DNA of 64,000 nt from Prorocentrum cordatum (lineage: Eukaryota). The stretch spans positions 2,542,001 through 2,606,000 of the forward strand of contig CAUYUJ010000001.1 of assembly GCA_963575745.1 (NCBI GenBank), in the 5' to 3' direction. Under the pieces are notes generated by a model that was given only the letters and a program-made list of their open reading frames with translations, ran no database searches and was not told the origin of the DNA. This document shows, piece by piece, positions 1,204 to 40,521 of the stretch. Numbering within the stretch: position 1 is the first letter of the stretch; every line of letters starts with the position of its first letter. A program made the position numbers and the translations under genes.

Positions 1204-1689
1204 CAAAAGGGCATCCAACCCCGCGCAGCTCCTCCCGTTGTCGCTCCGCCGCCGCCAGCCGCTCGGAGAGGTCCTGGCGCGGGGGCGGCCACGAGGACAC
1301 GCCCGTGCCCCAACCCGCCTCTCGCTCGGGCGCGCGCTGACATTCGGCGGCGCGCCCAGGGGGGAGGGGAAAAGGTGGCGGGTCTCCTCCTGGCCATCGC
1401 TCGGACGTCCATTCCCTGTGTTTTTTTCGGTTTCGTGCGTGGCTTCTTCGCCAAATGATCACGGATGCTCCTCGATGGTTCTCGCCGAAGGAAAAATGCA
1501 CACGTCCGAGCGATGCCGAGCCTCGGAAGGCTCAGAGGGCACCCGGGCATCCCGAGTAGCCATCTGCGCGATCTTCGAGGCACCGACGCCTGCGGAAGAG
1601 GTCTGCCCCACCTCACTGCCGCCCTCGGCGCGCCGCCGAGCCTCCCTCTCGGGCACGCGCTGACGTGCATCACGGATGCGCGGATCTGG

Positions 1690-1896
1690 TGTCAAGGGGC
1701 TCGGGGGGCTCGAAGTGTAAAGGAGTAAGTGGGGAGGGCGAGCGTACATTTTAGTGCTTACGCCAGAATCCTCAGCGACTCCAGGGCGAGTCGCACCCTA
1801 AGCCAAAAAGGCTGTGCACTACTGCAGAACACAAAGAGCGGGAAGAGGGAGGGAGACCAGGAACCCGGGGCCAGGGCGAGCCGGGTTACGATGACA
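1690..1896 (-). repeat. 3' LTR (207 bp)
   Basis: Runs TGTCAAGGGG...TTACGATGACA; differs from 10926-11136 by 4 transitions and one 4-bp indel. Confidence 0.96.
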
Positions 1897-4800
1897 GTGC
1901 ACCCAACTTCGGTGGGTTCTGCAGGGGGAAACCCCCCGCGGCACCCACCCTGGCCTCGCAGGACAGGTACATGGGGGCGTCCGGCCCGGCGCCCCGCGCC
2001 TCCAGCCGCCGGTCGCCGGCACTGGCGGGGATCTGGCGGGCGACTCGCCCCGCCTCGGGCTCCTCGCGACCTCCGCTCCTCCGGCTCCTCTCTGCCTCCT
2101 GTGGTACCTCCTCCTCATCCTCAACCTCCTCGGCCTCCGCCTCCTCCTTCCTCCTAGAGCTGTACTCCTCCTCGCCTCCCCGGGGCTTATCCTCCTCGAC
2201 CTCGCCCCTCCTCCTCGCCTCTTCGATCAAGGCTTTCCGGCTAGCCCCGCGAGACCGGGACTTGAGGGACATATTCAACGCTCGCTCGTCGAGATGCCCC
2301 CCTTCGTCGACGAGACGCATCGATCCTCGACAAAGTAAGTCGTGCAGGGCCAGGTTGCTTTTTGACGGATCGGCATGTGTCAACGGATCAGCAGGCATGC
2401 GTCCGCGGGGGAGCCAACGGATCTGCGAGCCAGTCGAGCTCAACGAGTCTCTGACAACAGCAAGTTCGATCGCGTTACGTCGATCGGACCGGGACCCAGC
2501 AGCGTTTTTGCTCAACGTGTCGAACACCGATTTGGCATCCACCACGGCCAGGGACGCGGCTCGATCACTCAACTCGCAAGTCGAGGACATCACGACCGAG
2601 AACGGAGAGGCTCCAATATTCCAAGACGGCTTCTGGACATCTCCGAAAACCGCATCACGCCAAATAACCTGCAAGTACTGAGCCTCGGCCACAGCACCGC
2701 TCAAGGCGAGAGTCTCTGCAGCGACGGTGGAGCTGATCACCCGCTTCAGTCGCTGCGAGCGCCACGAGAGCAGTGACGCGCGAGCTCGGCGGTTCGCCCG
2801 GATCGAGGCGTCCGCAGCCATAACCAACCAAGCACCCTGAGATCCTCCGCGGCTCGCGGAGCCCGGCCCGGAGGCGTCGGACGCCGCGACGAACGCGAGC
2901 GAAAGCGGGTCGAGCCCCCACACGGTCAACCTCTGAGAGGCCGTGGCCTTCAAAAACTTGCAAACCTTGATGAGCGTGAGAGCGTGGGAAACGAGAGGGG
3001 TCGGCATGGCCCCCGCGAGAATCGAAGCCGATCCCGCCACGTCTGGACGCGACTCCCTGGCCACCCACTGTACCTGGGCCACCACTGCCCGATACGACTT
3101 GACCTCAGTAGGCGCGAGGGGGGAATCAGGATCACAGCGACGAGAGCGATCGAGAGGCATAACCGTAAGTTGCTCCCGTATATATTTCTCCTGATCAATG
3201 GTTATCCGATCCCTAAACTGGCGCAGGTGCCGACCGGCAAACTCCGAATCGGACTGGCGCCACTTGCCAAACCGGAACCTAGACGTCGCTCTCTCCTTGA
3301 ACCGACCCACATACTCCTGGCGGCCGGTCACAATGAGGTCGTCGACCTCAATAAGCACCAGGCCCTCAAGGGCCCCCATCCGGTCCCGTTTGAGCCAGAG
3401 GCACGGTTCAAGCATGGACTTCGTGAAGCCCTCCGCCGCGAGCCAATCAGTCAGCGTCCGATGCCACAGAAGTGGAGCATCGTTGAGACCATATACGGGC
3501 GCAACCAACTCGATCAACTGATCTGGGCCAATCGGCAGACCCGAGCACGGCTCAACAAAAATCTTTCCACGGGGGCGCTCTAAACGCTGGCTCTGGCAAA
3601 ACGCGTTCTTCGCGTCAGCGATGGTAAGGGTCCATCCGAATGACGCGGCAATCTGCAGGCAGGTAAGAACGCTCTCTGACTGAGGTGTCGGGGCGTAGAC
3701 CTCCAAAGTTTCAGAGTCGGGGTCCTGGTGCCCGTGGACGCACCAACGGGATTTGGGCTCGGGGCGAGAGCCTACCCCCTCAACCGGTTTCAGCCGTCTA
3801 ACCATGCGAGAAGATAAAATGCGGTCGGGAAGCCGCCTCCGAGCTGACACCGACTCCTCAGGCGAGAGCACGCGCACAGCTCCAGTGCCCAGCATCGCCG
3901 CCCATTCCTTAGCGTCTGACTCCGAAAATCGGGCGCGATCTTCCGGGGACAAGTCTTTAAGTCTCACCTCGGCCCCCCGTGGGTTGATCTTGGGCGGAGT
4001 CTTGTCAGACGCCGAGGTCGGGTACGACAGCTCGTCGAAGGGACCTAAGTCTCTCAAAAAGAAGCGAGCCAGATCGGGGGCCCCCCGCGCCGCGGACCAC
4101 TCGAGGAGCTCTTGGACCAGAAAGCTGTCCTGCTCCTCGTCAGGAGCGTCCCAGTCACAATCACTTCCGCTGGCCTCCAGGTCCTCTCCGCCGGCATCCG
4201 TACTTTCGCCGGCCTCCTCCGCCTTCCCGCCGAGCTCCGCCAGGAAGTCGCCGGCGCCAGGGCGGGGCCCAGGGGGCCTGCTCCTGCCCGAGGACCGCGC
4301 GGCGGGGGCCTCCGGGGACGCGCGAGCGTCAGACGAAGGGCGAGCCCGGGGGACAGAGATGTCCCGCCCGGACCCCAAAACTCGTGCTGAAGGCGGCCGC
4401 TCCCTCGCCATGGGAACGTCCAGCGCCGGGGCCTCCGGCGCCGGGCGAGGAAGCGGCTCGACGCTCACAGGGGCAGGACTGCTAGCGGCCCCCTCCGCTG
4501 AGGGGGAAGGCGCCGACCCAGGAGGGGCAGCGGCGGATTGACTTGGCGGGCCTTGGATGGCCGCCACTCGCTGCAGAACGGAAGGCCTGTCTGGATACTC
4601 CTCAATCGGGGTAAAACGCGGACGCTTATCCTGAGGCTCAGGGCCCGGGGAAAGCCGGACCTCGCCCCGGGTCTCCGGGAGGGCGTCCGATCCAGGTTCC
4701 GAGGCGACCGATCCGACCGCGGGGACGAGAGAATCCGCGGGGGCCGAGGGCACCCGAGTGCCCTGAGAAACCTGGCGAGAGGGGCCCTGGGAAATCGGCG

Positions 4801-7800
4801 GATCCGGGATCACCGGGACCTGCTGCCTCGCCGAGGGGTCCTCCGGGGGCGCCGCTTCGGGGGCATCGTTGGCCTCGGGAGGCGGGGGTCCTTCGGCGGT
4901 GACATCCACCGCGCCAGACCTCTTGCCTGGGGAACGGATGTCTTCGCGAAGGCGGTCGAAGGCAGCACTATCCAACAACTCGGCCCCCATCGACTCTGAC
5001 CGAGTCGCCAGGCGCACCTGCTCGGCAGTGCACTTCAACAACTTGGCCCTCATGGCCACCCAGACGGTTCCGCCACCCTTGCTTCCACCGGCTCCCGCGG
5101 ACTGGTAGATGACGACCCCGGGACCGGTCCACCTGTCACGCTGGAGGGAGTGGGATCGATTGGAGGCGGTGATCCTCCGAAACACGTAAACCCAATCCCC
5201 CGGCCTGAATTCTCGCTCCTGATGAGGGCGAGCACGAGACGCCTCAGCAAGCCTAGATCGCGCATCCAGACCGGCGAGCGCCTTCCGGGCCTCCTCACGG
5301 ATCCGATGCTGCCGCGCAAACTCGCCGGCGGCCGAGTCGAGGTCCACAGCGCGGGCCGAAACGTCATCCGAGCCGATCAAGTCGACTGGGTCGTCTGACA
5401 ACAAACTCCGAGGGATCCGAAGGTTTTGTCCGAAAACAAGCTGGGACGGGCTGAAACCGCCACGGTGAAAACCCCGATTTTTGCTGGCAACCACTTCGCA
5501 GAGAAGGAAATCCGTCTCCTCTCGGGTCTCGGGATTGATCGACTGGGCTGCTTTCGACAGGGCTTCCTTCACTAAGCCGCCGTGGCGCTCACATTTGCCA
5601 TTCTGATGCGGAGAGTTGGCCGGAATAACGTGCTGCATCACTCCGTGATGTTCACACCCCCTCGCGAAAATCCCCTCAAACTCCCCTCCCCCATCACGCG
5701 CGAGGACCTCCGGGACCCCGAATGGCCTCACCCACCATCTAAGAAACGCGGCCCAGACCGACTTGGCCGTGTCGTCAGACAGAAGAGCGCACTGCTGGAA
5801 CGAGGTTCCATGATCAATGATGTTCATGACGGGGGTGCTCTTTCCATCGATGTCGAGATAGAACAGGTCTATCGCGATAACCTTATTGAAAGCGTAAGTG
5901 TGGGGCAAGTGCGCTCTCCTACGCCAGCTGGCCTTGGTGTGCGAGGCACACTGATCGCACTTAAACTCATCCTTCACCCAGGTTAACACCTCCAAGCGGG
6001 CCCCTGCCACGCGCAGGGCACGAAGGAAATCTTCATTCGAGGGGTGTCCGAGATTCACGCGCAGGCGGGCCACCTCTTTCTGAAGGGCCAGATCCAGAGA
6101 GGCCGCTTTCACGGGGCCCTGGGGCCGGGGAAGGCCCTCGGCGGGACCCGAACGGCCCCTGGAGGCCTCGTCTTCCTCGGAGACCGCGGGATCGGCTTCC
6201 TCGACCGGAAACGACCACGACTCAGCCTCGGAGGCCTCGTCCTGCTCAAACAGGGTAGCGGGGCCCGCCTGTCGAACCTGGGAGCGCCGGCGGTGAAACG
6301 CCAGAGCCCCGTCTTCCACGCCGGAGGCTAAACTACTGATCAGCTCCCTCGGGAAGTTCTCCGCGGCGTGCGTCCTGGCGCCGCCGAGAAGGGGAACGCG
6401 GACATGCTTGTGACTGCAGCGTCGCTGGCAGTGTGCGAGGAGGGGGGAAGAGTTGGACATCGCCCTGGTGGGTTTCTTGGCCGGTCCGAGCTCGCCGGTC
6501 CACAACCCATGCATGCGCTGATCCAGCTTCGAGACCTGGACCTCCGGCCTCTCGCACAGCACTCGCGCGCACTCGAGATGCCAAGAGCTGGCCGTGTCGG
6601 GGTGCTCCAAGGCAAAGAAACGACCGTGGGTAATCTGATACTCCGCAACTCTCATGCACAACTGCATTGCGGCAAGTCCGAGCCGCTCCTCCTCCTCCTC
6701 CCGAATTGGGTCCATCCGCCCCCAGTTGGAGGCCCGGGGCGCGCTGAATGCCTTGCACATCGGAGTCATAAGGACGAAGAGCGGCTGATCCTCACGAAGC
6801 TGGCGCCGCAGGCGCGCCTCCCCCTCGGGAGAAAGGAGATCAGTACCCAGGACTAGATCCAGAGGCGCCGACACGCTATGCCCGCGGCGCTGCAACTCCG
6901 CTGAAACCTTAGACGAGCTGAACATCTCTAAAGCTAAGGCCCCCCCCCGCTGAGCCTCCCGCGCCTTCACCACCTTCCGGCGGGTCCTTCGGCCCGATCT
7001 GAGCCCCTCACCTCCTAAGGCGCGGGCCGCTGCCTCGCGCACTTGCCGGGGGGCCGACGGGGCCGCGGGGGCGACAGCTAAGCGACCATCTAAGGCTGCC
7101 GCTGTGAACCGGTCCTCCTCTATCATGGTCACCTCCTCCACCTCCCTCGATCTCCTCGCCTCTTCCTCTCCTCCTCCAGGCGGAGCCTTTTCGCACCAAA
7201 AAGTCACCTGAAGCACAGACTTCAAAGTCGAGCCGAGCGCCCGGCTGATCTCGGAGGCCCCCGAAGTGGCCCACAAGCCGGTGTAAAGCACGGAATCTCC
7301 GAGACCCGCGATCTCGAGCCATCTTGGGCCAGAGGGAAGAGACGAGTCCGGAGGCTCCTCACCGTTGGCAGCGAGCGCGAGGCCTACGAAAAAGGCGCTG
7401 CGCTCGGAAGGCGAGAGACGAACGGGGGTCCACTGCTGACTCTCGCAGACCCTCTGAGGACTGAGAAGGGTGCCCGAGCTTTCTCCCCAGAATCCGAGGA
7501 CCTCCCGAGACGATCGACGATGCCGAGAGCCCCTCCGGAATCGATTCAAATAAGTTCCCAGATCCTTGAGGAAGACGTCGCGGGGGTCGCAACAGGAGAA
7601 GGTTCTACCAGCCAGCTCAGCCTGCTTCTCAGGAAAGACGTCGCTTAGACGCCGGATGCGTTCGCCTCCTCGGCCACCGCGGGCAAGAAGCCGCCCGGAG
7701 ACCTGCCCGAGGAGATCGCCTGCATCATCGTCGCGATGCGAAGGAGGTCGTCGTTCTGGATCGTCGCAGGGCGGGTCGCCAGCTCGGTCATCGTCGTCTC

Positions 7801-10045
7801 TGCCCAGGCCCTCTGGTCGGCGATCATGTTGCGAAGGTTCATGAACGTCAGCTCGTTGTCGCGGCGCTGCGACTCCAACACGGTCGTCATATCGAAGAGC
7901 GCTCTCTGCATCTCCTGCACAGTCATCGGGCGAGTGCTCGACGATCCCGGCGTGGGCCCCGAGGTCTTCGGCGTCGCGCCAAGCTCCCGAGACGCCGGAG
8001 GGGGCTTCACCGGAATGTAGCCCTCGGCGCACTTGACCATCGGGATCGGGTGCTGGTCGAACTGGTCCTTCTCCTTCCGGCCAGGCGCCGGCGGCGGAAC
8101 CGGAAGGGGCAGCGCGGGCGACTCCTGCCAGGGGTCCGTCGCCTCGTCCCAGGCCCGCACCCTGGCCTTGCACTCGTCCTTGTACTTGGCCTTGATCTGC
8201 TTCTTCTTCTCGACCAGGGCCTTCTTCGCGCGGCGCGCCTCCTTTTCTTCGGTCGTGAACTTGGCGAAGTGGAGCTGCACCGAGCACACCGTGCACTTCG
8301 AGTAGGTGCCGTGCTGGTTCTCCCCGTGCCAGTGGGCGTGCGGCGGGTGTGGGCAGTCCTCTGGGTCCTCGCGCTCCTTGATCATGTTCGGCATAAGGGT
8401 CGAGGCCAAGACCGCCTGGGTGCACGCGTGCATGTGCCAGAAGATCCTGATCGTCATCCTGCGCCAGCGCTGCACGTTCGTCTTCAGACTCATGTGGCCC
8501 TCCACGAACCACTCCTGCTCCTGGTCGTCCAGCGCCTCGAGTTCCAGCATCGTTTGCAAGTCCTCGTCGGGCGCCTGCTGCTCCGGCAGCTCCTCCCAAT
8601 CGTCCATCTCGGTGTCCTTCGGGCCGTTCTCCAGGATACTCGAAGCGCGAGTCCTCATCGCGCTCAGGTCGAAGCGAACCCTCCGACTGGCCTGCACCCT
8701 CCTCGAAGGATGCGGGGACTTGCCACGCGACTCCTTCTTGCTGACGCCGGGCCGCCCACTGCCGGATGACATCGTGGGCGCTGCGGCCTCCTCCTGAGCT
8801 ACTCGCGGGGGCTCGCCTCTCCTCAGAAGTTTGAGCTGAGAACTCTGGAGTGGGGGGGTCGGGTCCACAACATCGCAACCCCCTCGGGCCCCCGCTCGAA
8901 GGAGAGGAGAGAAAAGGAGAGGGGCTGACGCTGCTGCTGACCGGCGCGGGCCGACTCTCACCGGCGGCCGATCCCTCCCCGCGGTCCTGGACCACGAACT
9001 GCTGGGCCGACATCCCCAGGGCGTCCTGGATCTCGCGGGCCAGCACGAACTGGGAGGCGGGGCGCTGCACCAGGTCGACCGAGCGGTGGCCGGACGGGTG
9101 CGAGACCAAGTCAAAAGCAATCGATCGGCCTCCCACCTTCACGCTCATCTGGTTCCGGGGGAGATCGATAACCGAGCCGAGGCAAGTGAGAAATTTGGCG
9201 GGCAGCAGTGGCGGACAAGATCCCTCTAGAATCAAAAACTCGACGATGCCGCAGCCCCCCAACGTCACAGGCGCCCAAGCCTTCCCGACCGGAACAGCTC
9301 GACCTCCGATCCCGGAGGCTGCGATGCCGATGACCGGCGTCCAGTCGAGGACGAGCTGGTAGCCCCGGAGCTTCAGAGCACCCTCCAGCTCCAGCACCTC
9401 GGCCCGCCCGATCAGAGCCTGCGCGGCCGCGGTGTCCACCAGCGCGTGCGTGCCGAGGCTCCTGAGGGTCGCGTCGGCGAACGTCGCGCGGACGAGGTCG
9501 ACCATCCCCGAGAAGCCGTCCACGTCCTCGTTCACGAAAAAGTAAGTGAAACCGGTCGGCGCCTTGGCGCCAGCAGCCTTCTCCTTGGCCAACCGATCCG
9601 CCTTGGACTGGAACGGGTTCGTGCAGCTCTCAGCCCAGTGGCCTCGCTGCCCGCAATTCGCGCAGCGCGACTTGCGGCGGAAATCCTTTTCCCCGATCTT
9701 CCGAAACCCTGGACGAGCTGGCCTCGAGGATTTACGGCGGTCGAAGAAGTCACGGTCCGTCTTCTTAGCCAACTTCAGTTTCCGAGATTCGGTCCAAGTT
9801 CGTCGACGCTCCTTACCGTATTTCTCCTCCACCACTTTAGCAAAAACTTCAGCGGCCTCATGTTCGTCCATATCCTGTTCTTCCACAGCCGTCAGGAAAG
9901 CCAAAGCCTCGTCCTCCGGTAGCTCTATCTCGTCGTCGTCGCCCTCATAGTAGGTTTCCGGTGGCGGCGGACACTCCGACGATGAGGATCCTTCGTGCAA
10001 GAAGCTCTTGGGGACGGGTACCGGATTGGCTGGAAGGACCCGCTT
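1886..10045 (-). CDS. pol: Gag-Pol polyprotein body: zinc knuckle, aspartic protease, insert, DNMT-like domain, integrase, RT, RNase H
   Basis: Open for >2700 codons. CANCGQRGHWAESC knuckle (9623-9664); LVDTAA protease (D at 9434-9436); GHP...CDQC and IDLF/DGGGEF/GKCER DDE integrase (~6080-5430); RWCVHGHQDPD, ADAKNAF, PVYGLNDAP, EVDD RT (~3760-3000); SDAS/AAET/VDAKS/ADPLT RNase H (~2900-2350). The stop lies inside the 3' LTR. In frame with the gag ORF across one TAA. Confidence 0.95.
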   Translation of the reverse strand, partial: KRVLPANPVPVPKSFLHEGSSSSECPPPPETYYEGDDDEIELPEDEALAFLTAVEEQDMDEHEAAEVFAKVVEEKYGKERRRTWTESRKLKLAKKTDRDFFDRRKSSRPARPGFRKIGEKDFRRKSRCANCGQRGHWAESCTNPFQSKADRLAKEKAAGAKAPTGFTYFFVNEDVDGFSGMVDLVRATFADATLRSLGTHALVDTAAAQALIGRAEVLELEGALKLRGYQLVLDWTPVIGIAASGIGGRAVPVGKAWAPVTLGGCGIVEFLILEGSCPPLLPAKFLTCLGSVIDLPRNQMSVKVGGRSIAFDLVSHPSGHRSVDLVQRPASQFVLAREIQDALGMSAQQFVVQDRGEGSAAGESRPAPVSSSVSPSPFLSSPSSGGPRGLRCCGPDPPTPEFSAQTSEERRAPASSSGGGRSAHDVIRQWAARRQQEGVAWQVPASFEEGAGQSEGSLRPERDEDSRFEYPGERPEGHRDGRLGGAAGAAGARRGLANDAGTRGAGRPGAGVVRGGPHESEDERAALAQDDDQDLLAHARVHPGGLGLDPYAEHDQGARGPRGLPTPAARPLARGEPARHLLEVHGVLGAAPLRQVHDRRKGGAPREEGPGREEEADQGQVQGRVQGQGAGLGRGDGPLAGVARAAPSGSAAGAWPEGEGPVRPAPDPDGQVRRGLHSGEAPSGVSGAWRDAEDLGAHAGIVEHSPDDCAGDAESALRYDDRVGVAAPRQRADVHEPSQHDRRPEGLGRDDDDRAGDPPCDDPERRPPSHRDDDAGDLLGQVSGRLLARGGRGGERIRRLSDVFPEKQAELAGRTFSCCDPRDVFLKDLGTYLNRFRRGSRHRRSSREVLGFWGESSGTLLSPQRVCESQQWTPVRLSPSERSAFFVGLALAANGEEPPDSSLPSGPRWLEIAGLGDSVLYTGLWATSGASEISRALGSTLKSVLQVTFWCEKAPPGGGEEEARRSREVEEVTMIEEDRFTAAALDGRLAVAPAAPSAPRQVREAAARALGGEGLRSGRRTRRKVVKAREAQRGGALALEMFSSSKVSAELQRRGHSVSAPLDLVLGTDLLSPEGEARLRRQLREDQPLFVLMTPMCKAFSAPRASNWGRMDPIREEEEERLGLAAMQLCMRVAEYQITHGRFFALEHPDTASSWHLECARVLCERPEVQVSKLDQRMHGLWTGELGPAKKPTRAMSNSSPLLAHCQRRCSHKHVRVPLLGGARTHAAENFPRELISSLASGVEDGALAFHRRRSQVRQAGPATLFEQDEASEAESWSFPVEEADPAVSEEDEASRGRSGPAEGLPRPQGPVKAASLDLALQKEVARLRVNLGHPSNEDFLRALRVAGARLEVLTWVKDEFKCDQCASHTKASWRRRAHLPHTYAFNKVIAIDLFYLDIDGKSTPVMNIIDHGTSFQQCALLSDDTAKSVWAAFLRWWVRPFGVPEVLARDGGGEFEGIFARGCEHHGVMQHVIPANSPHQNGKCERHGGLVKEALSKAAQSINPETREETDFLLCEVVASKNRGFHRGGFSPSQLVFGQNLRIPRSLLSDDPVDLIGSDDVSARAVDLDSAAGEFARQHRIREEARKALAGLDARSRLAEASRARPHQEREFRPGDWVYVFRRITASNRSHSLQRDRWTGPGVVIYQSAGAGGSKGGGTVWVAMRAKLLKCTAEQVRLATRSESMGAELLDSAAFDRLREDIRSPGKRSGAVDVTAEGPPPPEANDAPEAAPPEDPSARQQVPVIPDPPISQGPSRQVSQGTRVPSAPADSLVPAVGSVASEPGSDALPETRGEVRLSPGPEPQDKRPRFTPIEEYPDRPSVLQRVAAIQGPPSQSAAAPPGSAPSPSAEGAASSPAPVSVEPLPRPAPEAPALDVPMARERPPSARVLGSGRDISVPRARPSSDARASPEAPAARSSGRSRPPGPRPGAGDFLAELGGKAEEAGESTDAGGEDLEASGSDCDWDAPDEEQDSFLVQELLEWSAARGAPDLARFFLRDLGPFDELSYPTSASDKTPPKINPRGAEVRLKDLSPEDRARFSESDAKEWAAMLGTGAVRVLSPEESVSARRRLPDRILSSRMVRRLKPVEGVGSRPEPKSRWCVHGHQDPDSETLEVYAPTPQSESVLTCLQIAASFGWTLTIADAKNAFCQSQRLERPRGKIFVEPCSGLPIGPDQLIELVAPVYGLNDAPLLWHRTLTDWLAAEGFTKSMLEPCLWLKRDRMGALEGLVLIEVDDLIVTGRQEYVGRFKERATSRFRFGKWRQSDSEFAGRHLRQFRDRITIDQEKYIREQLTVMPLDRSRRCDPDSPLAPTEVKSYRAVVAQVQWVARESRPDVAGSASILAGAMPTPLVSHALTLIKVCKFLKATASQRLTVWGLDPLSLAFVAASDASGPGSASRGGSQGAWLVMAADASIRANRRARASLLSWRSQRLKRVISSTVAAETLALSGAVAEAQYLQVIWRDAVFGDVQKPSWNIGASPFSVVMSSTCELSDRAASLAVVDAKSVFDTLSKNAAGSRSDRRNAIELAVVRDSLSSTGSQIRWLPRGRMPADPLTHADPSKSNLALHDLLCRGSMRLVDEGGHLDERALNMSLKSRSRGASRKALIEEARRRGEVEEDKPRGGEEEYSSRRKEEAEAEEVEDEEEVPQEAERSRRSGGREEPEAGRVARQIPASAGDRRLEARGAGPDAPMYLSCEARVGAAGGFPLQNPPKLGALSS
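6320..6940 (-). other. C5-cytosine DNA methyltransferase-like domain within the polyprotein
   Basis: Ordered DNMT-like motifs: LEMFS (degenerate motif I), PLDLVLGTDLL (II/III), MTPMCKAFS (motif IV, Cys at 6755-6757), FALEHP (motif VI), KKPTRAMSN (VIII-like), AAENFPREL (X-like). Boundaries approximate. Confidence 0.72.
7645..8772 (-). CDS. Overprinted ~375-aa protein (CxH...CxxC zinc finger plus coiled coils) nested in an alternative frame of pol
   Basis: ATG at 8772, TAA at 7645, frame offset from pol. Protein-like composition and GC3-rich codons (CPHPPHAHWHGENQHGTYSKCTVC; KEARRAKKALVEKKKQIKAKYK), while the pol frame here reads as R/G/A/P-rich filler. Confidence 0.75.
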   Translation of the reverse strand: MSSGSGRPGVSKKESRGKSPHPSRRVQASRRVRFDLSAMRTRASSILENGPKDTEMDDWEELPEQQAPDEDLQTMLELEALDDQEQEWFVEGHMSLKTNVQRWRRMTIRIFWHMHACTQAVLASTLMPNMIKEREDPEDCPHPPHAHWHGENQHGTYSKCTVCSVQLHFAKFTTEEKEARRAKKALVEKKKQIKAKYKDECKARVRAWDEATDPWQESPALPLPVPPPAPGRKEKDQFDQHPIPMVKCAEGYIPVKPPPASRELGATPKTSGPTPGSSSTRPMTVQEMQRALFDMTTVLESQRRDNELTFMNLRNMIADQRAWAETTMTELATRPATIQNDDLLRIATMMQAISSGRSPGGFLPAVAEEANASGV

Positions 10046-10807
10046 TTATTGCACGTCAAGAAGTAGAAGGGCGGACCGAATGGATGCTGCATCCTTTTGA
10101 CCACCTGCCAACGTCCGCATGTTGATCTTGTTTTGTGCCGATAGATTCGCTCCTTCTTCCAGGTAACGTGCCAGTACATTGTCTGGGAGCACGAGCCCCC
10201 GAGCAGCCGCATCTGCAAGTTGGGCATTGCGTCGAAGTGCGAAATCGGTGATGCTTTCATTCCGCTGGATCATGTAATCGAACAACGCGTGACTATGACT
10301 GAGACGATCTCTGTCGCCGGGCCGCTCTCCGTTGAGAATGCTCAAGTGGTCCAAGTATGTGTCCACGCCGTTTTCGAGCTCCAACGCCTGTCGCACTGGC
10401 TTGAATTTCAGTTGGAGCTCCACGGGCAAAGACTCCACCAGCCTCGACGCCTGGGTCTCCGGCTGGTGGCCGGTCCTCGTGGACCACGCCCGCACGTTGC
10501 TACTGTACAGCTCTAAGTGTTCTAGTCCGAGCCAATTTGGAGGAGGCCCGAAGTCACGACTACGCTCCGGGCGGCCCCAGGTCGCGCCCTTCCAATCCTG
10601 GGCGTCGTGCTCATCCTGGTCGCCGCCGCCGTCGCTACCTGCAGCTGCCCACGGTGTCCACGAGTACCACCAGCCAGAGCCCCAGCCCCAGCCGTTCCAC
10701 GCACTCTGACCCCAGCCAAGGTCTGACCCCGACGCTTGAATGCCGACGGAGCGCGCGCCATCACTGCCTATCTCGTCGAAGCCGTGGTCGCCACCATCCG
10801 CCGGCAT
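10046..10807 (-). CDS. gag: Gag (capsid) N-terminal region
   Basis: ATG at 10807 just after the PBS; W/G-rich N-terminus followed by PPPNW...YSSNVRAW...RNESITDF capsid-like motifs; ends in TAA in frame with pol. Confidence 0.82.
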   Translation of the reverse strand: MPADGGDHGFDEIGSDGARSVGIQASGSDLGWGQSAWNGWGWGSGWWYSWTPWAAAGSDGGGDQDEHDAQDWKGATWGRPERSRDFGPPPNWLGLEHLELYSSNVRAWSTRTGHQPETQASRLVESLPVELQLKFKPVRQALELENGVDTYLDHLSILNGERPGDRDRLSHSHALFDYMIQRNESITDFALRRNAQLADAAARGLVLPDNVLARYLEEGANLSAQNKINMRTLAGGQKDAASIRSALLLLDVQ

Positions 10808-10906
10808 GCCGGCGGCAAGAGGGCTCGAGCACTCCCTTCTCGCGCCGAGGGTCCAGCACCTGCCACTTCTCGGCACGTCCGCTCCTCCCACGATCTGCCT
10901 CACAAC

Positions 10907-10924
10907 CACGTGCTCCGCTTACCA
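10907..10924 (-). promoter_or_regulatory. Primer-binding site (probably tRNA-iMet)
   Basis: TGGTAAGCGGAGCACGTG begins 1 nt inside the 5' LTR; TGG pairs with tRNA CCA and the rest resembles iMet-type PBSs with a bulge. The tRNA identity is inferred. Confidence 0.75.
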
Positions 10925-10925
10925 C

Positions 10926-11136
10926 TGTCAAGGGGCTCGGGGGGCTCGAAGTGTAAAGGAGTAAGTGGGGAGGGCGAGCGTACATTTTAGTGCTTATGCC
11001 AGAATCCTCAGCGACTCCAGGGCGAGTCGCACCCTAAGCCAAAAAAACTGTGCACTAATTACTGCAGAACACAAAGAGCGGGAAGAGGGAGGGAGACCAG
11101 GAACCCGGGACCAGGGCGAGCCGGGTTACGATGACA
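10926..11136 (-). repeat. 5' LTR (211 bp)
   Basis: Direct repeat of 1690-1896 and adjacent to the PBS. Confidence 0.96.
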
Positions 11137-11699
11137 CTGGCGCGCGAGCAGACTCGCGGATCGGGGAGCGTACCCCCCGAGACATGGTACAGTTGGCGAC
11201 GGAGCTGGTCCGCACGCCTTGATCCAAATCTGCGCGCTTCCTCGACCCCCTCCCGTCGGACTTCCGCTGCGGCTCGCCTTCCCCTGGTCCCCCTCCCCCG
11301 AGGGCTGGGTGAGGGGCCCAGAGGAGGCTGATGCAGGACAGGCCTCCCAGACATGCGACGTCCTGATTTTTTCAGGACGGGGTCCGTGGAAGTAAGTCCC
11401 GACCAGTTCCCCGGGACCGGTTTTTCATCCTGCGTCGTTTTTTGAGGGCCCCGAGGCCCGGCGAGGGCCTCCTGAGGGCGAAATTGGCCAAAAACTTGCC
11501 GTCCTGACTTTTTACGACGCGATCATGTCTGGAATACCATCCCACACTGCTCGACAGTGAGAACATGCGGCAACACGACACATCGCTGTAAGAAATCTGG
11601 GGGCGCATCCTTCGTCGACTGCGAGTTTCGCACGGTGCTGCAGGGCTCTGCGGGCTGATCGGGAGATAAAACATTGAGCCGCCACCAGCTGGCAGGCCA

Positions 11700-19859: not shown

Positions 19860-20810
19860 CTCTGTAAGGGATCCTCAGGAAGGAATCCGGAGGAATCTCT
19901 AGGGAATCCATAAGGCTTCCTTTGGAATCCTAGGATTGCCTTAGGAACCCTTAGCACTCCCTAGTGTATCCTCAAGACTCCCGAAGGCACCTTTAGCTCT
20001 CCCTGAGGAATCCTTCGCTATCCCTACGGAATCCTCGGCACTTCCTACGGAATCCTTCGCACTCCCTAAAAAATCCTTTGCACTCCCTACGGGATCCTGA
20101 GGCCTCCCTACGGAATCCTGAACACTCCCTGGGAATCCTTCTCCCTACGGAATCCTTAGGAACCCCTAGGAAATCCTTAGGAATCCCTCCGGAATGCTCA
20201 AGGAATCTTCAAGAATCATCAGGGAACCCCTCGGAATCCCAAGGGGATCCTTAGAGAATCCTCTGCACTCCCTGAGGGATCCTTAGCAACCCCTAAGAAA
20301 TCCTCATCACTCCCTTGGGAACCCATCGGAAGCACCAAGAAACCTTTAGGAATTCTTAGGGTATCCGTAAGGCAATCCATAGGAATCCCGGAGGAATCCT
20401 TAGGAATCCCTTCGGGAATCCTTAGGGATCCTCTTGGATCTCTCATAGGAGTCCTCAAGAATCCCTATGGCATCCTTTGGGGATCCTCAGCAATCCTTAA
20501 GGGATCCTACAGAAACCCCCAAAGAATCTTTAGAATCCTCTAGGGAGTTCATGGGAAACCGTGGGGAATTAGGTCAGGACGAATCCCTTTGGGAATTCTT
20601 TCCGGGAGTTCTCACGAATCCCTGAGTCATCCTAAGGAGGGTCCCCAGGGATTCCTTAGGAATCGCTGAGGAATCCTTAATTAGGAGGGCCTCTGTGGGA
20701 CACCGTAGGGAATCTTTCAGACGTTTTCAAAAATCCTTAGGAGTCCCCCGGGCATCCGTAGGATTTCCTTCAAAACCAGGAGGCATCCTTCAAAAGTTTC
20801 CAGGAATGCA
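19860..20810. repeat. Degenerate GGAATCCT/TAGG simple-repeat tract
   Basis: Dense recurrence of GGAATCC(T) and CTTAGG at roughly 10-20 bp spacing. Confidence 0.8.
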
Positions 20811-20829
20811 TCGGACATCGGTCGAAGTA

Positions 20830-21044
20830 GTTATAGTAGCAGAAAATACGAATAGAAGTAATACTAATCGTCGTCGTAGTCGTTGTCGTCGTCGTAAAAA
20901 TAGTAGTGTCAATATTGTTATTGTTATTGTTGTTAATATTATTAGTAGTAGAAGTAATCAGGGTCGTAGTAATAGTCGTAATAGTAGTAGTAGTAGTAGT
21001 AGTAGTCGTTGTAGAAGTAGTAGTAGTAGTAGTAGTCGTATTAA

Positions 21045-21085
<41 letters not shown>

Positions 21086-21341
21086 ATAGTCGTGGTAGTT
21101 GCGATGATAGTAGTGGTAGTCGTCGTCGTAGTCGAAATCATAGTGATAGTTGTAAGGCTAATACTAGAAGTAATAGTATTAGTAACTGTAGCAACAATAA
21201 AGGTCGCCGTAGTAGTCGGAGAAGGAGTAGTCGCAGTAGTCGCCATCGTCGAAAATAGTAGTTGTAGTAATAGTAATGGTAGTAGTCGTAGCAACAATAC
21301 GAGTAGTAGTCGTACTAGTAGTAGTAGTAGTAGTAGTAGTC

Positions 21342-21378
<37 letters not shown>

Positions 21379-21910
21379 CAGTGGTAGTAGCAGTAGTAGT
21401 AGTAGTAGTAGTAGTAATAGTAATAGTATTAATAAAGGTAGTTGTAATGGTGGTACTAAGTACTCCTAGTAGTAGTAGTATTAATAATAATCTTAATAGT
21501 AGTAGCAGCCGTCGTTGTAGTGGGCGTAGTAATATCGTAGTCGTACCAGTCGTAGTTGCAATAGCAGGAATAGTGGTAGTAGTCGTAGTAAAAAAAGTAG
21601 CAGTAATACTTGTAGTAACTATCGTAGTCGTGACAGTAGTAGTCGTGAACCTAAAAATAGTGATAGTAGTAGTAATAAAAAGAGTAATATTAATAGTGGT
21701 CGTAGTTTTAGTAGTCGTAGTAGTAGCAGTAGTTGTAGTAGTAGCAAGTGTTGTACTAGCAGTAGTAGCAACAGTAGTAGTGGTAGGCGTAGTAGTGACA
21801 GCAGTCATATGAGTAGTAGCAATCATCGTAGTAATCGTGGGGGAAGTAGTAGTAGTTGTAGCTGGAGTAGTTGTAGTAGTAGTAGTAGTAGTAGTAGTAG
21901 CAGTAGTAGC

Positions 21911-21961
<51 letters not shown>

Positions 21962-21977
21962 CGTAGTAGTCGTAGTC

Positions 21978-22026
<49 letters not shown>

Positions 22027-22315
22027 GTAGTAGTAGCGGTAGTAGTAGTCGTTGTCGTAGTAGTCGTAGGAATGGTCGTCGTGGTTGCAAGAGTAGTAGT
22101 GGTAGAAATAGCAATAATCGTATTATTAGCAGTGGTAGTCGCCGTAATCATAGTATTAGTAGGCATAGTAGTGTTTAGTGGTAATTGCCGTAATCGTGAT
22201 GATGGTAGTAGTAGTACGAATCCTACAAGCCGGAGAAATAGAAATACTAAAGAGAATAATAGTCGCCGTAGAAGTCGTAGTACCAGAAACAATACCCGTG
22301 CTCGTAATAGTCGTA

Positions 22316-22346
<31 letters not shown>

Positions 22347-23028
22347 GCAATAGTTATCGTGGTCGTACGTACGTAATACGTAGTACCGAATACGCAGTAC
22401 GTTTCAGCCCTTCGCTATCTAGTAATAGGTGGGTAGTAGTAGTAGTGGAGTACTCTTAGTAGTCGTAGTATGAATGGAAAAGAAGAAAAAGTAGTAGTTG
22501 TTATGGTAGAAGGTGTGCTGCTGGTAGTAGGTAGTAGTAGTACTAATAAAAATGGTGGCATCAGTAGTAATAATAGCAGTCGTACTAGTAGGAGTAGCAG
22601 TAGTGGTAGTAGTAGCAGCACTAGTGGTAGGAGTGGTAGTAGTAGCAGTAGTAGTGGTAGTAGAAGTAGTAGTGGTAGTAATGATCGGAGTAGTCGTATT
22701 ATTAACACTGATGCCCGTAATAGTAGCAGTAGTAACAGTAGGAGGAGGAGAAATAGTAGTAGTCATGATAGGTATAAAAAGTAAACTGAGAATATTAAAA
22801 GTAGTAACCGTCTCAAACTATGTTGTAATAACATCAGACATGCTACGAATCGCAGAAGTGGTAGTCGTAGCAGTAGTGGTAGAAATCGTAATAGTAGTAG
22901 TAGTAGTAGTATTTGAAATACTCGTACTAGAAGTAATTGTAACAGTAGACGTAATAGCAGTAGTAATAATAATAGTTTAGTGGTCGAAGCAATCGTAATA
23001 GCTGTAGAAGTCGTAGTAGTAGTAGTAA

Positions 23029-23092
<64 letters not shown>

Positions 23093-23170
23093 CGTCGTAG
23101 TTGTAATAGTCGTCGTCGTCGTCGTAGTAGTAGTAGTAGTAGTGCTAGTAGTAGTAATAGTAGTAGTAGC

Positions 23171-23203
<33 letters not shown>

Positions 23204-23366
23204 CGTCGTCGCAAAAGGAGAGCTAAAAGTAGTAATGGTCGCAGTCGTAGAACTAGAACTGAAAATCGTAGCGGTCGTCGTCGTAGTAGTAGTAGTAGTA
23301 GTAGTCGTAGCAGTAGTAGTCGTAGTAGTGAAAATAATCGTGGTAGTGCTAGTAGTAGTAGTAGTA

Positions 23367-23413
<47 letters not shown>

Positions 23414-23442
23414 AGTAGTAGTGGTAGTAGTAGTAGTAGTAA

Positions 23443-23477
<35 letters not shown>

Positions 23478-23545
23478 ATAGTAGTAGTAGTAGTAGTCGT
23501 AGTAGTAGTAGTAGTAGTAGTAGTCGTAGTCGTAGTCGTAGTCGT

Positions 23546-23600
<55 letters not shown>

Positions 23601-23681
23601 TAAGTAGTAGCAGTAGTAGTAGTAGTAGTAGTAGTAGTAGTCGTAGTAGTACTAGCAGTAGTAGTAGTAGTAGTAGTAGTC

Positions 23682-23724
<43 letters not shown>

Positions 23725-23875
23725 TAGTAGTGGTAGTAGTAGTGGTAGTAGTAGTGGTAGTAGTAGTGGTAGTAGTAGTAGTAGTAGTCGTAGTAGTAGT
23801 AGTAGTAGTAGTAGTAGTCGTAGTAGTAGTAGTCGTAGTAGTACTCGCAGTAGTAGTAGTAGTGGTAGTCGTCGC

Positions 23876-23907
<32 letters not shown>

Positions 23908-23933
23908 CAGTAGTGGTAGTAATAGAAGTAGTG

Positions 23934-23966
<33 letters not shown>

Positions 23967-25017
23967 CTAGTCGTAGTAGCCGTAGTAATGGAACTGATAG
24001 CCGTAGCAGTAATAATAATAGTAGTGGTAGTCGTAGTAGTAGCAATGGTAGAACAAGTATTAGTTGCTCTGTCAGAAGGTGTACGGCTCGTAGTACGTAG
24101 TCGTACTAGTAGTATTAGTGGTACCAGTAGTCGTAATAGTAATGAAAGTACAAATGCTAGTAGTAATGGTAGTAGTAGTGGTAGTAGTATCAATATTCGT
24201 AGTAGTAGTAGTAATAATACTAGTCGTAGTAGTAGTCGTAGTAGTAGAAGTAGTAATAGCCATCGGAATAACCGTAGAATTCACACTGATGCCCGTAGTA
24301 ACCGTAGTAGTCGGAGTAGTAGTAGTAGCAGCAGTAGTAGAAGTTATGATATCATACAAATATTCAGACTCGTAGGCATGGTAGGAGAAGTAATAATAGT
24401 AGTAAGGGTAGTCGTAGTCGAACTATAAGTACTAGCAGTCGCAGTTGTAGTAGTAGTATTAGTAGTAGTAGTCGCAGTAGTAGTAGCGATAGTAGTGGTA
24501 GTCGTATCAGTAGCAATAGCAGTAGTAGTAGTAATAGTAGTAGTAGTAGTAGTCGTAGTAGTAATAGTAATCGTAGTGCTAGTAATAATTGGAACCGTAA
24601 TAATAGTCGGAGTTGTGGCAGTCGTAGTAGTAGTGATGATCGTAGCACAAGTAATAGTAGTAGTAGTAGTAGTAATAGTAGTCGCAATCGTAGTAGTCGT
24701 AGTAGTCGTCGTAGTAGTAGTAGTAGTCGTAGTAGTACGAGTACGAGCACTAGTAGCAGTGATATTAAAACTAGAAGTGGAAATGGTGGTGGCCGTAGCC
24801 GTCGTAGTAGTAGTAGTAGTAGTAATAATAGCAGGAGACGTCGTAGTAGTAGTCGTAGTAGTAGTAGTAAGAACAGTTTGTAGTAGTAGTCGTAGTAGTA
24901 GTAGAAGTCCTAGTAGTAGTAGTAGTAGTCGTAGCAGTAGTAGTCGTAGTAGTAGTAGTAGTCGTAGTAGTAGTAGTAGTAGTAGTCGTAATAGTAGTAG
25001 TAATAGTAGTCGTAGTC

Positions 25018-25048
<31 letters not shown>

Positions 25049-25079
25049 AAGTAGTAGTAGAAGTATTAGCAGGAGTGGC

Positions 25080-25117
<38 letters not shown>

Positions 25118-25173
25118 CGGTAGTAGTCGTAGTAGTGGTAGTCGCACTAGTCGTAGTAAGCGTAGTAGTAGTC

Positions 25174-25210
<37 letters not shown>

Positions 25211-40431: not shown

Positions 40432-40499
40432 GGGCCGTCGGTCTCCCGCTGTGCGAACGCCGACGCCGACGCCGCCGACTCCGACTCCCGCGCGAGGGC

Positions 40500-40521
40500 C
40501 TTGAGCCAATATGGCTACGGA
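40500..40521 (-). other. Dinoflagellate spliced-leader relic
   Basis: TCCGTAGCCATATTGGCTCAAG matches DCCGTAGCCATTTTGGCTCAAG at 21/22. Confidence 0.95.

What the first reader, a model, noticed from the sequence alone, without database searches (positions are those of the whole stretch)
7645..8772. Hidden overprinted gene inside pol: 375-aa Zn-finger/coiled-coil protein in an alternative frame
Seen: between protease and the DNMT-like domain two same-strand frames stay open for >1.1 kb. The alternative frame has its own ATG and TAA, host-like GC3 codons, a CxH-x18-CxxC motif and charged helices, while pol reads as filler. Pol codon position 1 is the nested gene's position 3, so high GC3 keeps pol free of stops. 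A polypyrimidine tract plus AG at ~8924-8895 could be a trans-splice acceptor. Inference: a captured accessory gene (anti-silencing, targeting or env-like) expressed from a subgenomic SL-trans-spliced mRNA without breaking the polyprotein.
Basis: partly seen in the sequence, partly recalled or inferred. Interest (0 to 1): 0.87.

Follow-up and report, generated by a model that had tools for sequence, protein, structure and literature searches.

The report
Accessory gene nested in retrotransposon pol
A copia-type retrotransposon of a dinoflagellate carries a real 375-residue zinc-ribbon protein gene in a second reading frame inside a spacer of its own polymerase gene, an arrangement that most resembles the way hepatitis B virus hides its envelope gene inside its polymerase.

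Summary
On the minus strand an ATG (8772) to TAA (7645) ORF of 375 codons lies in the +1 frame wholly inside a 2,719-codon gag-pol frame (10045-1886) of an LTR retrotransposon (LTRs 11139-10926 and 1899-1690, RVT_2 reverse transcriptase). The nested frame carries the coding signal: its GC3 is 0.90, and the switch falls at its ATG and its TAA. It has 42 database relatives down to 22% identity that share a C-x-H-P...C-x-x-C zinc-ribbon motif. The pol frame over it reads as filler (79% G/A/R/P/D/E/Q/H, no Met). Yet it has 0 stops where about 6-7 are expected (P about 5e-4), while the third frame has 14 (13 expected). The best reading is a true dual-coding spacer: pol must be read through the nested gene to reach integrase and RT. 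This is organised like the hepadnaviral PreS/P-spacer overlap.

Not shown:
- Any transcript or peptide.
- The spliced-leader route of expression.
- A captured origin.
- Any function. An env-like role is disfavoured, since there is no membrane segment.
- The 'DNMT-like' and 'protease' labels, which got no tool support.
- Both frames in diverged sister copies, whose DNA could not be fetched.

The parts
10926..11139 (-). 5' LTR (214 bp, TG...CA), preceded by the 4-bp target duplication CCAG
   Evidence: Local alignment with 1899-1690, 95.8% identity with one 4-nt indel
10913..10925 (-). Primer-binding-site-like sequence starting TGG one base after the 5' LTR
   Evidence: Read directly from the sequence. 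No tRNA was matched.
10046..10807 (-). gag ORF (253 aa from ATG 10807). It ends at TAA 10048-10046, in the same frame as pol.
   Evidence: All 3 sister contigs that cover 10048 (2 in X1, 1 in X2) read a Glu codon there, so the stop is private to this copy.
1886..10045 (-). pol frame, 2,719 codons stop to stop: zinc knuckle, protease-like motif, spacer, unassigned domains, integrase-like part, RVT_2 reverse transcriptase, RNase H-like tail
   Evidence: Pfam RVT_2 E 2.2e-17, zf-CCHC E 3.5e-4, rve_3 E 0.014.
7645..8772 (-). Nested gene, 375 aa, in the +1 frame of pol. It has a basic N-terminus, an acidic stretch, a W-R-R helix, a zinc-ribbon motif, a charged helix, a Pro-rich linker and C-terminal long helices. 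The same bases read in the pol frame form the spacer (P0001 residues 410-786).
8284..8355 (-). C-x-H-x17-C-x-x-C zinc-ribbon motif (nested residues 140-163), the best-conserved block of the family
   Evidence: Alignment A1. The AF2 core at residues 140-210 has pLDDT 92-97, with three short strands and a helix.
8895..8924 (-). Function untested.
   Evidence: It is the only tract of 20 nt or more on the element's sense strand.
8823..8873 (-). 16-codon upstream ORF in the third frame, between the proposed acceptor and ATG 8772
7570..8769 (+). Antisense open frame (399 codons), a by-product of the nested gene's codon choice and not a separate feature
   Evidence: Its stop count was unchanged in all synonymous shuffles.
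1690..1899 (-). 3' LTR (210 bp), followed by CCAG

Best explanation
The window holds a Ty1/copia-type LTR retrotransposon of a dinoflagellate. Its single gag-pol reading frame contains a spacer of about 376 codons between the protease-like region and the next conserved pol domain. The same 1,128 bases, read one base downstream (+1 frame), encode a discrete 375-residue protein with its own ATG and TAA. That protein belongs to a family so far seen only in dinoflagellate-derived data. Members are about 210-400 aa, with a basic N-terminus, a W-R-R helix, a C-x-H-P...C-x-x-C zinc ribbon and long C-terminal helices.

The nested frame dictates the sequence. The pol frame there is a compositional by-product: a Gly/Ala/Arg/Pro/Asp/Glu-rich, probably disordered tether. 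It is kept free of stop codons because integrase, RT and RNase H can be made only by translating through it.

Shown: both frames are open, the nested frame carries the coding signal and has many relatives, and pol-frame stops are avoided more than chance allows.

Inferred: both products are made. The nested protein would be translated from ATG 8772 on a shorter RNA; spliced-leader trans-splicing inside pol is the obvious route in a dinoflagellate. It would act as a soluble zinc-dependent nucleic-acid- or protein-binding accessory factor of the element rather than an envelope protein.
For: Nested frame is a real gene:
- GC3 is 0.90, against 0.40-0.51 at pol position 3 in the same stretch. The switch lies within about 50 nt of the ATG and the TAA.
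- An exhaustive HMMER search found 42 representatives at E<=1e-3 (6 at <=1e-10), 22-60% identical, all 65-398 aa.
- In the alignment of 25 of these with the query, the W-R-R block and the Cys/His motif are shared. Most full-length members start at a Met at a similar distance from the core. The closest N-terminal fragment starts with the same M-S-S-G as the query.
- Of 20 hits looked up, 7 are Prorocentrum cordatum gene models, 7 come from one EukProt data set, 4 from ENA, 1 from Logan and 1 is an unnamed NCBI record.
- AlphaFold2 gives a confident core at residues 140-210, pLDDT 92-97.

Pol frame is kept open:
- It has 0 stops against 6.2 expected; 8 of 20,000 synonymous shuffles reached 0.
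- T-ending codons before AA/AG/GA-starting codons are 0 of 102, against 26 of 272 elsewhere (Fisher 3.3e-4). Corrected for context bias, P is 5.6e-4.
- The third frame is not depleted (14 observed, 13.0 expected). Other pol segments carry 5-18 off-frame stops.

Pol downstream is functional in the family:
- Of the 34 listed differences between this copy and sister contigs outside the nested gene, 26 are synonymous in the pol frame.
- Inside the nested gene, 3 of 5 are synonymous in the nested frame (all 3 change the pol residue) and 1 of 5 is synonymous in pol. None makes a stop.
- Sister contigs 94-96% alike cover parts of the nested gene, and one more diverged contig lies piecewise across 7929-9026.

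Other points:
- The spacer is 79% G/A/R/P/D/E/Q/H with no Met.
- Dinoflagellate origin: two spliced-leader relics in the window, 0 expected by chance.
Against: - No RNA run holds the stretch, so there is no evidence on transcription, translation or the expression route.
- No DNA of diverged sister elements could be fetched. Whether both frames stay open at 60-80% identity, the decisive test, is open.
- Only 5 sister differences inside the nested gene were listed, out of a table with 1,222 rows not shown.
- This copy is not pristine. Its LTRs are 95.8% identical, and a private TAA separates gag from pol.
- Other coding stretches of the window also show a milder lack of +2-frame stops: 4 against 8.1, 7 against 12.6, 10 against 16.7. 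This was allowed for.
- The finding was picked from a scan of many windows, so a P near 5e-4 is less striking than it looks.
- No homologue is longer than 398 aa. Seven of the 20 looked up are annotated as separate genes in P. cordatum, so the family may mostly live outside pol.
- A 16-codon upstream ORF lies in the proposed leader.
Confidence: 0.6

Rival explanations
1. The nested gene is real, but pol is not read through it. The element works as gag-protease, then the nested gene, then a downstream pol part expressed in another way (its own trans-spliced mRNA, re-initiation or splicing). Alternatively the family is non-autonomous. On this view the open pol frame is a by-product of very high GC3 plus luck and of the first reader's selection from many windows.
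For: T at nested position 3 is only 6.9%, which alone removes most potential stops. Milder +2-frame stop deficits occur in other ORFs of the window. GC-rich stretches with several open frames are common here, for example three minus-strand frames at 39553-40514. Dinoflagellates can resolve long transcripts by trans-splicing (recalled).
Against: Conditional on the nested gene's own codons, 6-7 stops are still expected and none is seen (P 4e-4 to 6e-4). The third frame shows no deficit. The pol frame resumes a protein-like sequence directly after the nested TAA, with no ATG-initiated restart needed. A single gag-pol frame is what sister contigs show at the gag/pol junction.
Confidence: 0.2
2. 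The nested ORF is a passenger without a role for the element. A gene, or an ORF of another mobile element, was inserted out of frame into pol. It is still intact only because the insertion is young, and the homologues reflect the donor family.
For: Homologues are annotated as stand-alone genes of 216-398 aa in P. cordatum, and none is fused to pol domains. No function or fold could be assigned. No expression data are available.
Against: The block fits the spacer exactly and leaves pol open, which a random insertion would do about 5 times in 10,000. Sister contigs from 96% down to under 90% identity carry the region. Of the 5 listed differences, 3 are synonymous in the nested frame. No target duplication, A-run or spliced-leader relic marks an insertion.
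Confidence: 0.12
3. The nested frame is reached by programmed +1 ribosomal frameshifting from the protease region, as in Ty1. This would give a gag-protease-X fusion rather than a free protein.
For: The nested frame is the +1 frame, and it is open for 122 codons upstream of its ATG, overlapping the end of the protease-like region.
Against: The coding signal of the nested frame starts only near the ATG. Homologues begin at a Met at the matching place. No Rfam element was found.
Confidence: 0.03

Closest known systems
Hepadnaviridae: PreS/S envelope ORF nested in the polymerase (P) ORF, with PreS over the P spacer (PMC5604429; passages read)
   Same: Both are reverse-transcribing elements. In both, an ORF of about 1.1 kb lies completely within the polymerase ORF, shifted one nucleotide downstream. 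The overlapped polymerase part is a flexible spacer between functional domains. Both frames are selected against stops. That paper proposes that extra nucleic acid inserted between two P domains gave the spacer and PreS in the two frames.
   Different: Here the nested ORF covers only the spacer and overlaps no catalytic domain. Its product has no membrane segment, so it is not an envelope protein. It has a family of 42 independent relatives, so it need not have arisen de novo. The host element is an LTR retrotransposon of a dinoflagellate, not a virus. Expression is unproven.
Overprinted accessory genes of retroviruses (deltaretrovirus regulatory genes; named in PMC5604429, passages read; details recalled)
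   Same: These are small to medium accessory proteins encoded in alternative frames of a reverse-transcribing genome and expressed from subgenomic RNAs.
   Different: As recalled, those overlaps lie mostly 3' of pol or within env and arise de novo. Here a 375-aa gene with the stronger codon signal sits inside pol, and pol is the 'slave' frame.
Retrotransposons that acquired accessory modules: SymbioLINE-Dnmt and SymbioDIRS-Dnmt3 of Symbiodinium (PMC5890265; passages read)
   Same: These are dinoflagellate retrotransposons that carry an extra, conserved protein module beyond gag/PR/IN/RT/RH.
   Different: There the module is a DNMT domain in a separate upstream ORF or in frame within Pol. That paper states that Symbiodinium Copia elements lack a DNMT. 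Here the module is a zinc-ribbon protein in a different frame of pol, and the neighbouring 'DNMT-like' stretch has no Pfam support.
Ty1/copia LTR retrotransposons (Pfam RVT_2 type). Heat-activated Ty1-copia elements of Symbiodinium microadriaticum (PMC5776459) were seen in a search listing only.
   Same: Shared features are the LTRs, a gag zinc knuckle, the integrase-like part upstream of an RVT_2 reverse transcriptase, and one long gag-pol frame.
   Different: At about 3,000 codons, gag-pol is roughly twice the length I recall as usual for copia elements. It has a 376-codon dual-coding spacer and further unassigned domains.

Membership tests
Ty1/copia LTR retrotransposon | Direct long terminal repeats with TG...CA ends and a target-site duplication | tested here: met
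   The LTRs at 11139-10926 and 1899-1690 are 95.8% identical, with TG..CA ends and CCAG on both sides.
Ty1/copia LTR retrotransposon | Copia-type reverse transcriptase (Pfam RVT_2) | tested here: met
   PF07727, E 2.2e-17, 63.9 bits (cut-off 31.6), at P0001 residues 2083-2277.
Ty1/copia LTR retrotransposon | Integrase encoded upstream of RT | tested here: inconclusive
   There are only weak matches, rve_3 at E 0.014 and MLVIN_C at E 0.1, in 4901-6100, upstream of RT and below the Pfam cut-offs. An H-x-C-x-x-C-like stretch is seen by eye.
Ty1/copia LTR retrotransposon | Aspartic protease with a D-T/S-G motif | tested here: inconclusive
   No Pfam protease family matched at E up to 5. Only a V-D-T-A-A stretch is seen by eye.
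Ty1/copia LTR retrotransposon | gag with a CCHC zinc knuckle | tested here: met
   zf-CCHC, E 3.5e-4, 21.0 bits (cut-off 20.8).
Dual-coding polymerase spacer of the hepadnavirus PreS/P kind (works-like comparison, not homology) | Second ORF wholly inside the polymerase ORF, same strand, +1 frame | tested here: met
Dual-coding polymerase spacer of the hepadnavirus PreS/P kind (works-like comparison, not homology) | Stops avoided in both frames beyond chance | tested here: met
   The pol frame has 0 stops against 6-7 expected, P 4e-4 to 6e-4. The nested frame is open and conserved as protein.
Dual-coding polymerase spacer of the hepadnavirus PreS/P kind (works-like comparison, not homology) | Both frames stay open in diverged relatives | not testable with these tools
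   No genome is held. Metagenome and viral scans found no relatives. The read-laying table was truncated.
Dual-coding polymerase spacer of the hepadnavirus PreS/P kind (works-like comparison, not homology) | Nested product is a membrane envelope protein | tested here: not met
   The best 19-residue Kyte-Doolittle mean is 0.85. The N-terminus is basic, not signal-like.
Dual-coding polymerase spacer of the hepadnavirus PreS/P kind (works-like comparison, not homology) | Both products expressed, the nested one from a subgenomic RNA | not testable with these tools
   No RNA holder was listed.
Unnamed dinoflagellate zinc-ribbon / long-helix protein family (42 representatives) | W-R-R helix, then C-x-H-P-x6-G-x-N-x4-Y-x2-C-x2-C, then a T-x-E-E charged helix, a Pro-rich linker and a C-terminal helix | tested here: met
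   phmmer E down to 2.5e-31 and alignment A1. The profile scores the window's ORF at 311 bits, and no other ORF of the window scores better than E 0.04.
C5 cytosine DNA methyltransferase (label given to the neighbouring pol domain) | Match to a DNMT profile (Pfam DNA_methylase) or to solved DNMTs | tested here: not met
   0 Pfam families at E up to 5 for 6101-7603. There was no DNMT among PDB sequence matches at E up to 10. The fold model was unusable at pLDDT 36, so a remote relationship is not excluded.

The most novel reading that the evidence does not exclude
The zinc-ribbon gene is an old, stable component of a dinoflagellate copia lineage. It is always encoded in the +1 frame of a pol spacer and is released as its own mRNA by spliced-leader trans-splicing inside the pol coding region. 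This would be the first LTR-retrotransposon counterpart of the hepadnaviral PreS/P overlap. In it the polymerase is the 'overprinted' frame laid over an acquired gene, and many of the 42 related protein clusters are likewise hidden inside pol genes that annotation has missed.
Probability: 0.25. Interest if true: 0.8.

Novelty: new variant of a known kind. Interest (0 to 1): 0.62.

Why it matters
Fully nested, same-strand dual coding of a 375-residue conserved protein inside pol is textbook for hepadnaviruses. Three literature searches turned up no such case in an LTR retrotransposon.

If both frames prove to be translated, three things follow:
- Retrotransposons can carry sizeable accessory genes at no cost in length, by letting pol read through them as a disordered tether.
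- Dinoflagellate trans-splicing would gain a possible role in making subgenomic retroelement mRNAs.
- A dinoflagellate protein family of unknown function would gain a context that can be tested.

It also warns annotators. In GC-rich genomes the longest ORF can hide the frame that is actually under protein-level selection.

Tried and rejected
Genome and sister-copy DNA:
- Whole genome: none is held.
- Other copies in the window: none by blastn, tblastn or the family profile.
- Sister-element DNA from metagenome contigs: none encoded a relative. A degenerate motif pattern gave 2 AT-rich chance matches, L001 and L002.
- Viral contigs: 0 matches to the motif pattern and no relative of the protein.
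- Alignments A1 and A2 were too diverse for the search for related loci.

Protein searches:
- The word-based search with the nested protein at 206-657 aa gave no hit.
- Pol residues 150-1000 at 1,487-4,732 aa gave no hit among 8,000 scored candidates.
- Pol residues 786-1290 against shorter proteins gave 7 short fragments, 57-93% identical, none reaching into the spacer.

RNA and reads:
- No RNA holder was listed.
- Only contigs could be laid. Parts without cover say nothing, and most difference rows were not shown.

Function of the nested protein:
- Pfam gave nothing above cut-off. The best were HDV_ag at E 0.024 and zf-C3HC at E 0.08.
- The ESM Atlas gave no usable hit.
- A PDB profile search gave nothing below E 0.76.
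- Foldseek's best E was 1.8, with weak rows for small zinc ribbons.
- VIA-align's best Z was 6.1, all generic long helices.

DNMT-like neighbour: Pfam, PDB sequences and AF2 gave nothing usable.

Other checks:
- Capture marks: no spliced-leader relic within the element and no A-run after the TAA.
- Ty1-type +1 frameshift heptamer: absent from the element. Rfam: no family in 1500-11400.
- Pfam on 8 other long ORFs of the window gave only one sub-threshold DUF4834 match.
Full report
**What is there.** The minus strand of 1690-11139 is an LTR retrotransposon.
- Two direct repeats (11139-10926 and 1899-1690) are 95.8% identical, start with TG, end with CA, and are flanked by CCAG on both sides. 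A TGG-starting primer-binding-like sequence follows the 5' repeat.
- A gag ORF runs from ATG 10807 to TAA 10048-10046. The same frame then stays open from 10045 to 1886, 2,719 codons.
- Pfam finds a CCHC zinc knuckle (E 3.5e-4), weak integrase matches (rve_3, E 0.014) and a copia-type RVT_2 reverse transcriptase (E 2.2e-17), in that order.
- All 3 sister contigs that cover position 10048 read a Glu codon where this copy has TAA. The family therefore has one continuous gag-pol frame, and the window's copy carries a private nonsense change.
- Two near-matches to the dinoflagellate spliced-leader core elsewhere in the window (40500-40520 and 48294-48314; 0 expected by chance) show a dinoflagellate genome.
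- Relatives of the element's proteins are labelled Prorocentrum cordatum, or come from one EukProt data set that shares a 90%-identity cluster with a P. cordatum protein.

**Check of the observation.**
- The ORF from ATG 8772 to TAA 7645 (375 aa) is real, and it lies one base downstream of the pol frame. Nested position 3 is therefore pol position 1.
- Along the pol frame, GC is highest at position 3 except between about 8800 and 7640. There GC at pol position 1 is 0.82-0.96 and at pol position 3 only 0.26-0.64. The nested frame has GC3 0.90. The switch coincides with the nested ATG and TAA to within about 50 nt.
- The zinc motif is C-x-H-x17-C-x-x-C, at 8355-8284.
- The pyrimidine tract is at 8924-8898, with G-AG after it.

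**Is the double openness more than chance?** The test kept the nested protein and its own codon usage and shuffled synonymous codons.
- The pol frame should carry 6.2 stops on average. Only 8 of 20,000 shuffles had none.
- The reason is visible in the sequence. None of the 102 codons that precede a codon starting AA, AG or GA ends in T, whereas 26 of the 272 other codons do (Fisher p 3.3e-4).
- A milder bias of the same kind exists in gag and in the rest of pol (ratio 0.74). With it, 7.2 stops are still expected and P(0) is 5.6e-4.
- Controls: the third same-strand frame has 14 stops (13.0 expected). Six other 1,128-nt pieces of pol have 5-18 off-frame stops, near expectation. Other GC3-rich ORFs of the window show at most a two-fold deficit.
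- The antisense ORF 7570-8769 follows automatically from the nested codons. Its stop count never changed in the shuffles.
- A caveat is that this finding was selected from a very large scan, which weakens any single P value.

**The nested frame is a real gene.**
- An exhaustive HMMER search of 1.84 billion representatives found 42 proteins at E<=1e-3 (6 at <=1e-10, best 2.5e-31). They are 22-60% identical, and none is longer than 398 aa.
- In an alignment of 25 of them with the query, the family shares an F-x-E-G...W-R-R helix, the C-x-H-P...G-x-N...Y-x-x-C-x-x-C block, a T-x-E-E charged helix, a P-[FY]-D-P-P-like linker and a C-terminal helix.
- Full-length members begin with Met and a basic N-terminus at a similar distance from the core. 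The nearest N-terminal fragment starts with the same M-S-S-G as the query. So the ORF is a discrete protein, not a piece of a frameshifted polyprotein.
- AlphaFold2 with this alignment gives mean pLDDT 69. The core (residues 140-210) is confident at pLDDT 92-97, with three short strands and a long helix. Further helices lie at 98-126, 285-333 and 340-355.
- No known fold or family was recognised. Pfam gave nothing above cut-off, the Atlas gave no usable hit, Foldseek's best E was 1.8 (weak small zinc-ribbon rows), and VIA-align's best Z was 6.1 (generic long helices).
- There is no membrane-like segment; the best 19-residue hydropathy is 0.85. That argues against an env-like role.

**The pol frame over it.**
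- The 375 pol-frame residues are 79% G/A/R/P/D/E/Q/H (56% elsewhere in pol). They contain no Met, and 10% I/L/M/F/W/Y/C against 20% elsewhere. This is what a frame whose first position is forced to G or C must give, and it reads as a disordered tether.
- Directly after the nested TAA the pol frame becomes protein-like again. Fragments 57-93% identical to the region further downstream exist in the databases.

**Sister copies.**
- Contigs of two DNA runs lie on the whole element: 1,080 in X1, most under 90% alike. The family is therefore multi-copy and diverged.
- I analysed 39 of the 40 substitution rows that the tool listed. The row left out lies in the 3' LTR.
- Outside the nested gene there were 34 rows: 26 synonymous in the pol frame, 7 not, and 1 the stop-to-Glu change.
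- Inside the nested gene there were 5 rows. Three are synonymous in the nested frame and change the pol residue, one is synonymous in pol only, and one changes both. None creates a stop.
- This small sample agrees with selection moving from the pol frame to the nested frame inside the overlap. However, 1,222 rows were not shown, and the listed ones are the best supported, not a random sample.
- The one indel listed near the nested gene, a 3-nt deletion at 8962, keeps the frame.

**Most likely mechanism.**
- Shown: there are two open frames, the nested one carries the protein-level signal, and the pol frame is purged of stops.
- Inferred: the element needs translation through the spacer to deliver integrase, RT and RNase H as part of gag-pol. 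The nested protein is made separately from ATG 8772.
- That ATG has A at -3, read from the sequence. It is the first in-frame ATG of the nested frame.
- It lies about 2 kb from gag's ATG 10807, so a shorter RNA is needed. In a dinoflagellate, spliced-leader trans-splicing at an internal AG is the obvious route (recalled biology). The tract at 8924-8895 is a candidate site.
- The evidence for that site is weak. There are 33 tracts of 20 nt or more in the window (12 on the minus strand, one of them in the element). A 16-codon upstream ORF (ATG 8873) would sit in the leader.
- Function is inferred only from anatomy. The basic N-terminus, zinc ribbon and long helices suggest a soluble nucleic-acid- or protein-binding adaptor that may oligomerise.

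**Origin.**
The nested frame is clearly the dominant one and the pol spacer the dependent one, so pol reads over a pre-formed gene rather than the reverse.
- Both A and T are rare at nested position 3 (3.2% and 6.9%). Stop avoidance alone would not require that.
- However, pol's own GC3 is 0.88-0.94 just upstream. No relic of a spliced leader and no A-run flank the block.
- Whether the 42 relatives are host genes or are themselves hidden in pol genes could not be determined.

**Comparison with known systems.**
- The closest analogue is the hepadnaviral PreS/S gene. It is 'fully nested' in P, 'frameshifted downstream by one nucleotide', with PreS lying over the flexible spacer of P. Both frames are selected against stops. 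The proposed origin is an insertion between two P domains that gave the spacer and PreS in the two frames (PMC5604429, passages read).
- The present case shares that geometry and logic. It differs in host (an LTR retrotransposon of a protist), in the product (not a membrane protein), in overlapping no catalytic domain, and in having many independent relatives.
- Dinoflagellate retrotransposons with extra modules are known. The DNMT-bearing LINE and DIRS elements of Symbiodinium carry the module in frame or in a separate ORF, and Symbiodinium Copia elements are said to lack a DNMT (PMC5890265, passages read).
- Three literature searches listed no report of a same-strand gene nested in pol of an LTR retrotransposon. 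This is a limited search of an open-access library, not proof of absence.

**Verdict.**
- I rate it a new variant of a known kind (dual-coding polymerase spacer), with interest 0.62.
- The decisive tests are both frames in diverged copies, spliced-leader-joined cDNAs, and footprints or peptides in both frames. None could be run here.

Noticed in passing
window 10046-10048 (minus strand): The TAA that separates gag from pol is private to this copy. All 3 sister contigs that cover the site (2 in X1, 1 in X2) read a Glu codon there, so the family has one continuous gag-pol frame of about 3,000 codons.
   Followed up: yes
window 40500-40520 (-) and 48294-48314 (+): There are near-matches (1 and 3 mismatches in 21 nt, 0 expected by chance) to the dinoflagellate spliced-leader core. 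These are likely relics at the 5' ends of retroposed genes. Three minus-strand frames and one plus-strand frame are open over about 39.5-40.5 kb, downstream of the first match.
   Followed up: partly
window 20000-26000: An AT-richer island (GC 0.40-0.43, against about 0.6 around it) has strongly positive GC skew (up to 0.54) and long overlapping ORFs on both strands. Pfam found nothing significant in three of those ORFs. A second low-GC stretch lies at 50-52 kb (GC 0.48, skew -0.38).
   Followed up: partly
window 2107-2148: A CT/CCT-rich simple repeat in the pol tail attracts a very large number of contigs in the laid runs (summed depth 5,484 in X1, against 10-48 elsewhere). It is a genome-wide microsatellite, not a sign of the element's copy number.
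   Followed up: no
window 7181-7185 and 7308-7310: Sister contigs show paired 1-nt deletions and insertions a few bases apart in the pol region just downstream of the nested gene. These look like compensated frameshifts or alignment ambiguity.
   Followed up: no
Fragments 57-93% identical exist in one EukProt data set, so it is a conserved but unassigned pol module.
   Followed up: partly
proteins P0010 and P0055: A protein of the EukProt set labelled Pyramimonas sp. CCMP1952 shares a 90%-identity cluster with a Prorocentrum cordatum gene model. That set also holds the closest relatives (up to 93% identity) of this window's pol. It therefore seems to contain dinoflagellate sequences.
   Followed up: no
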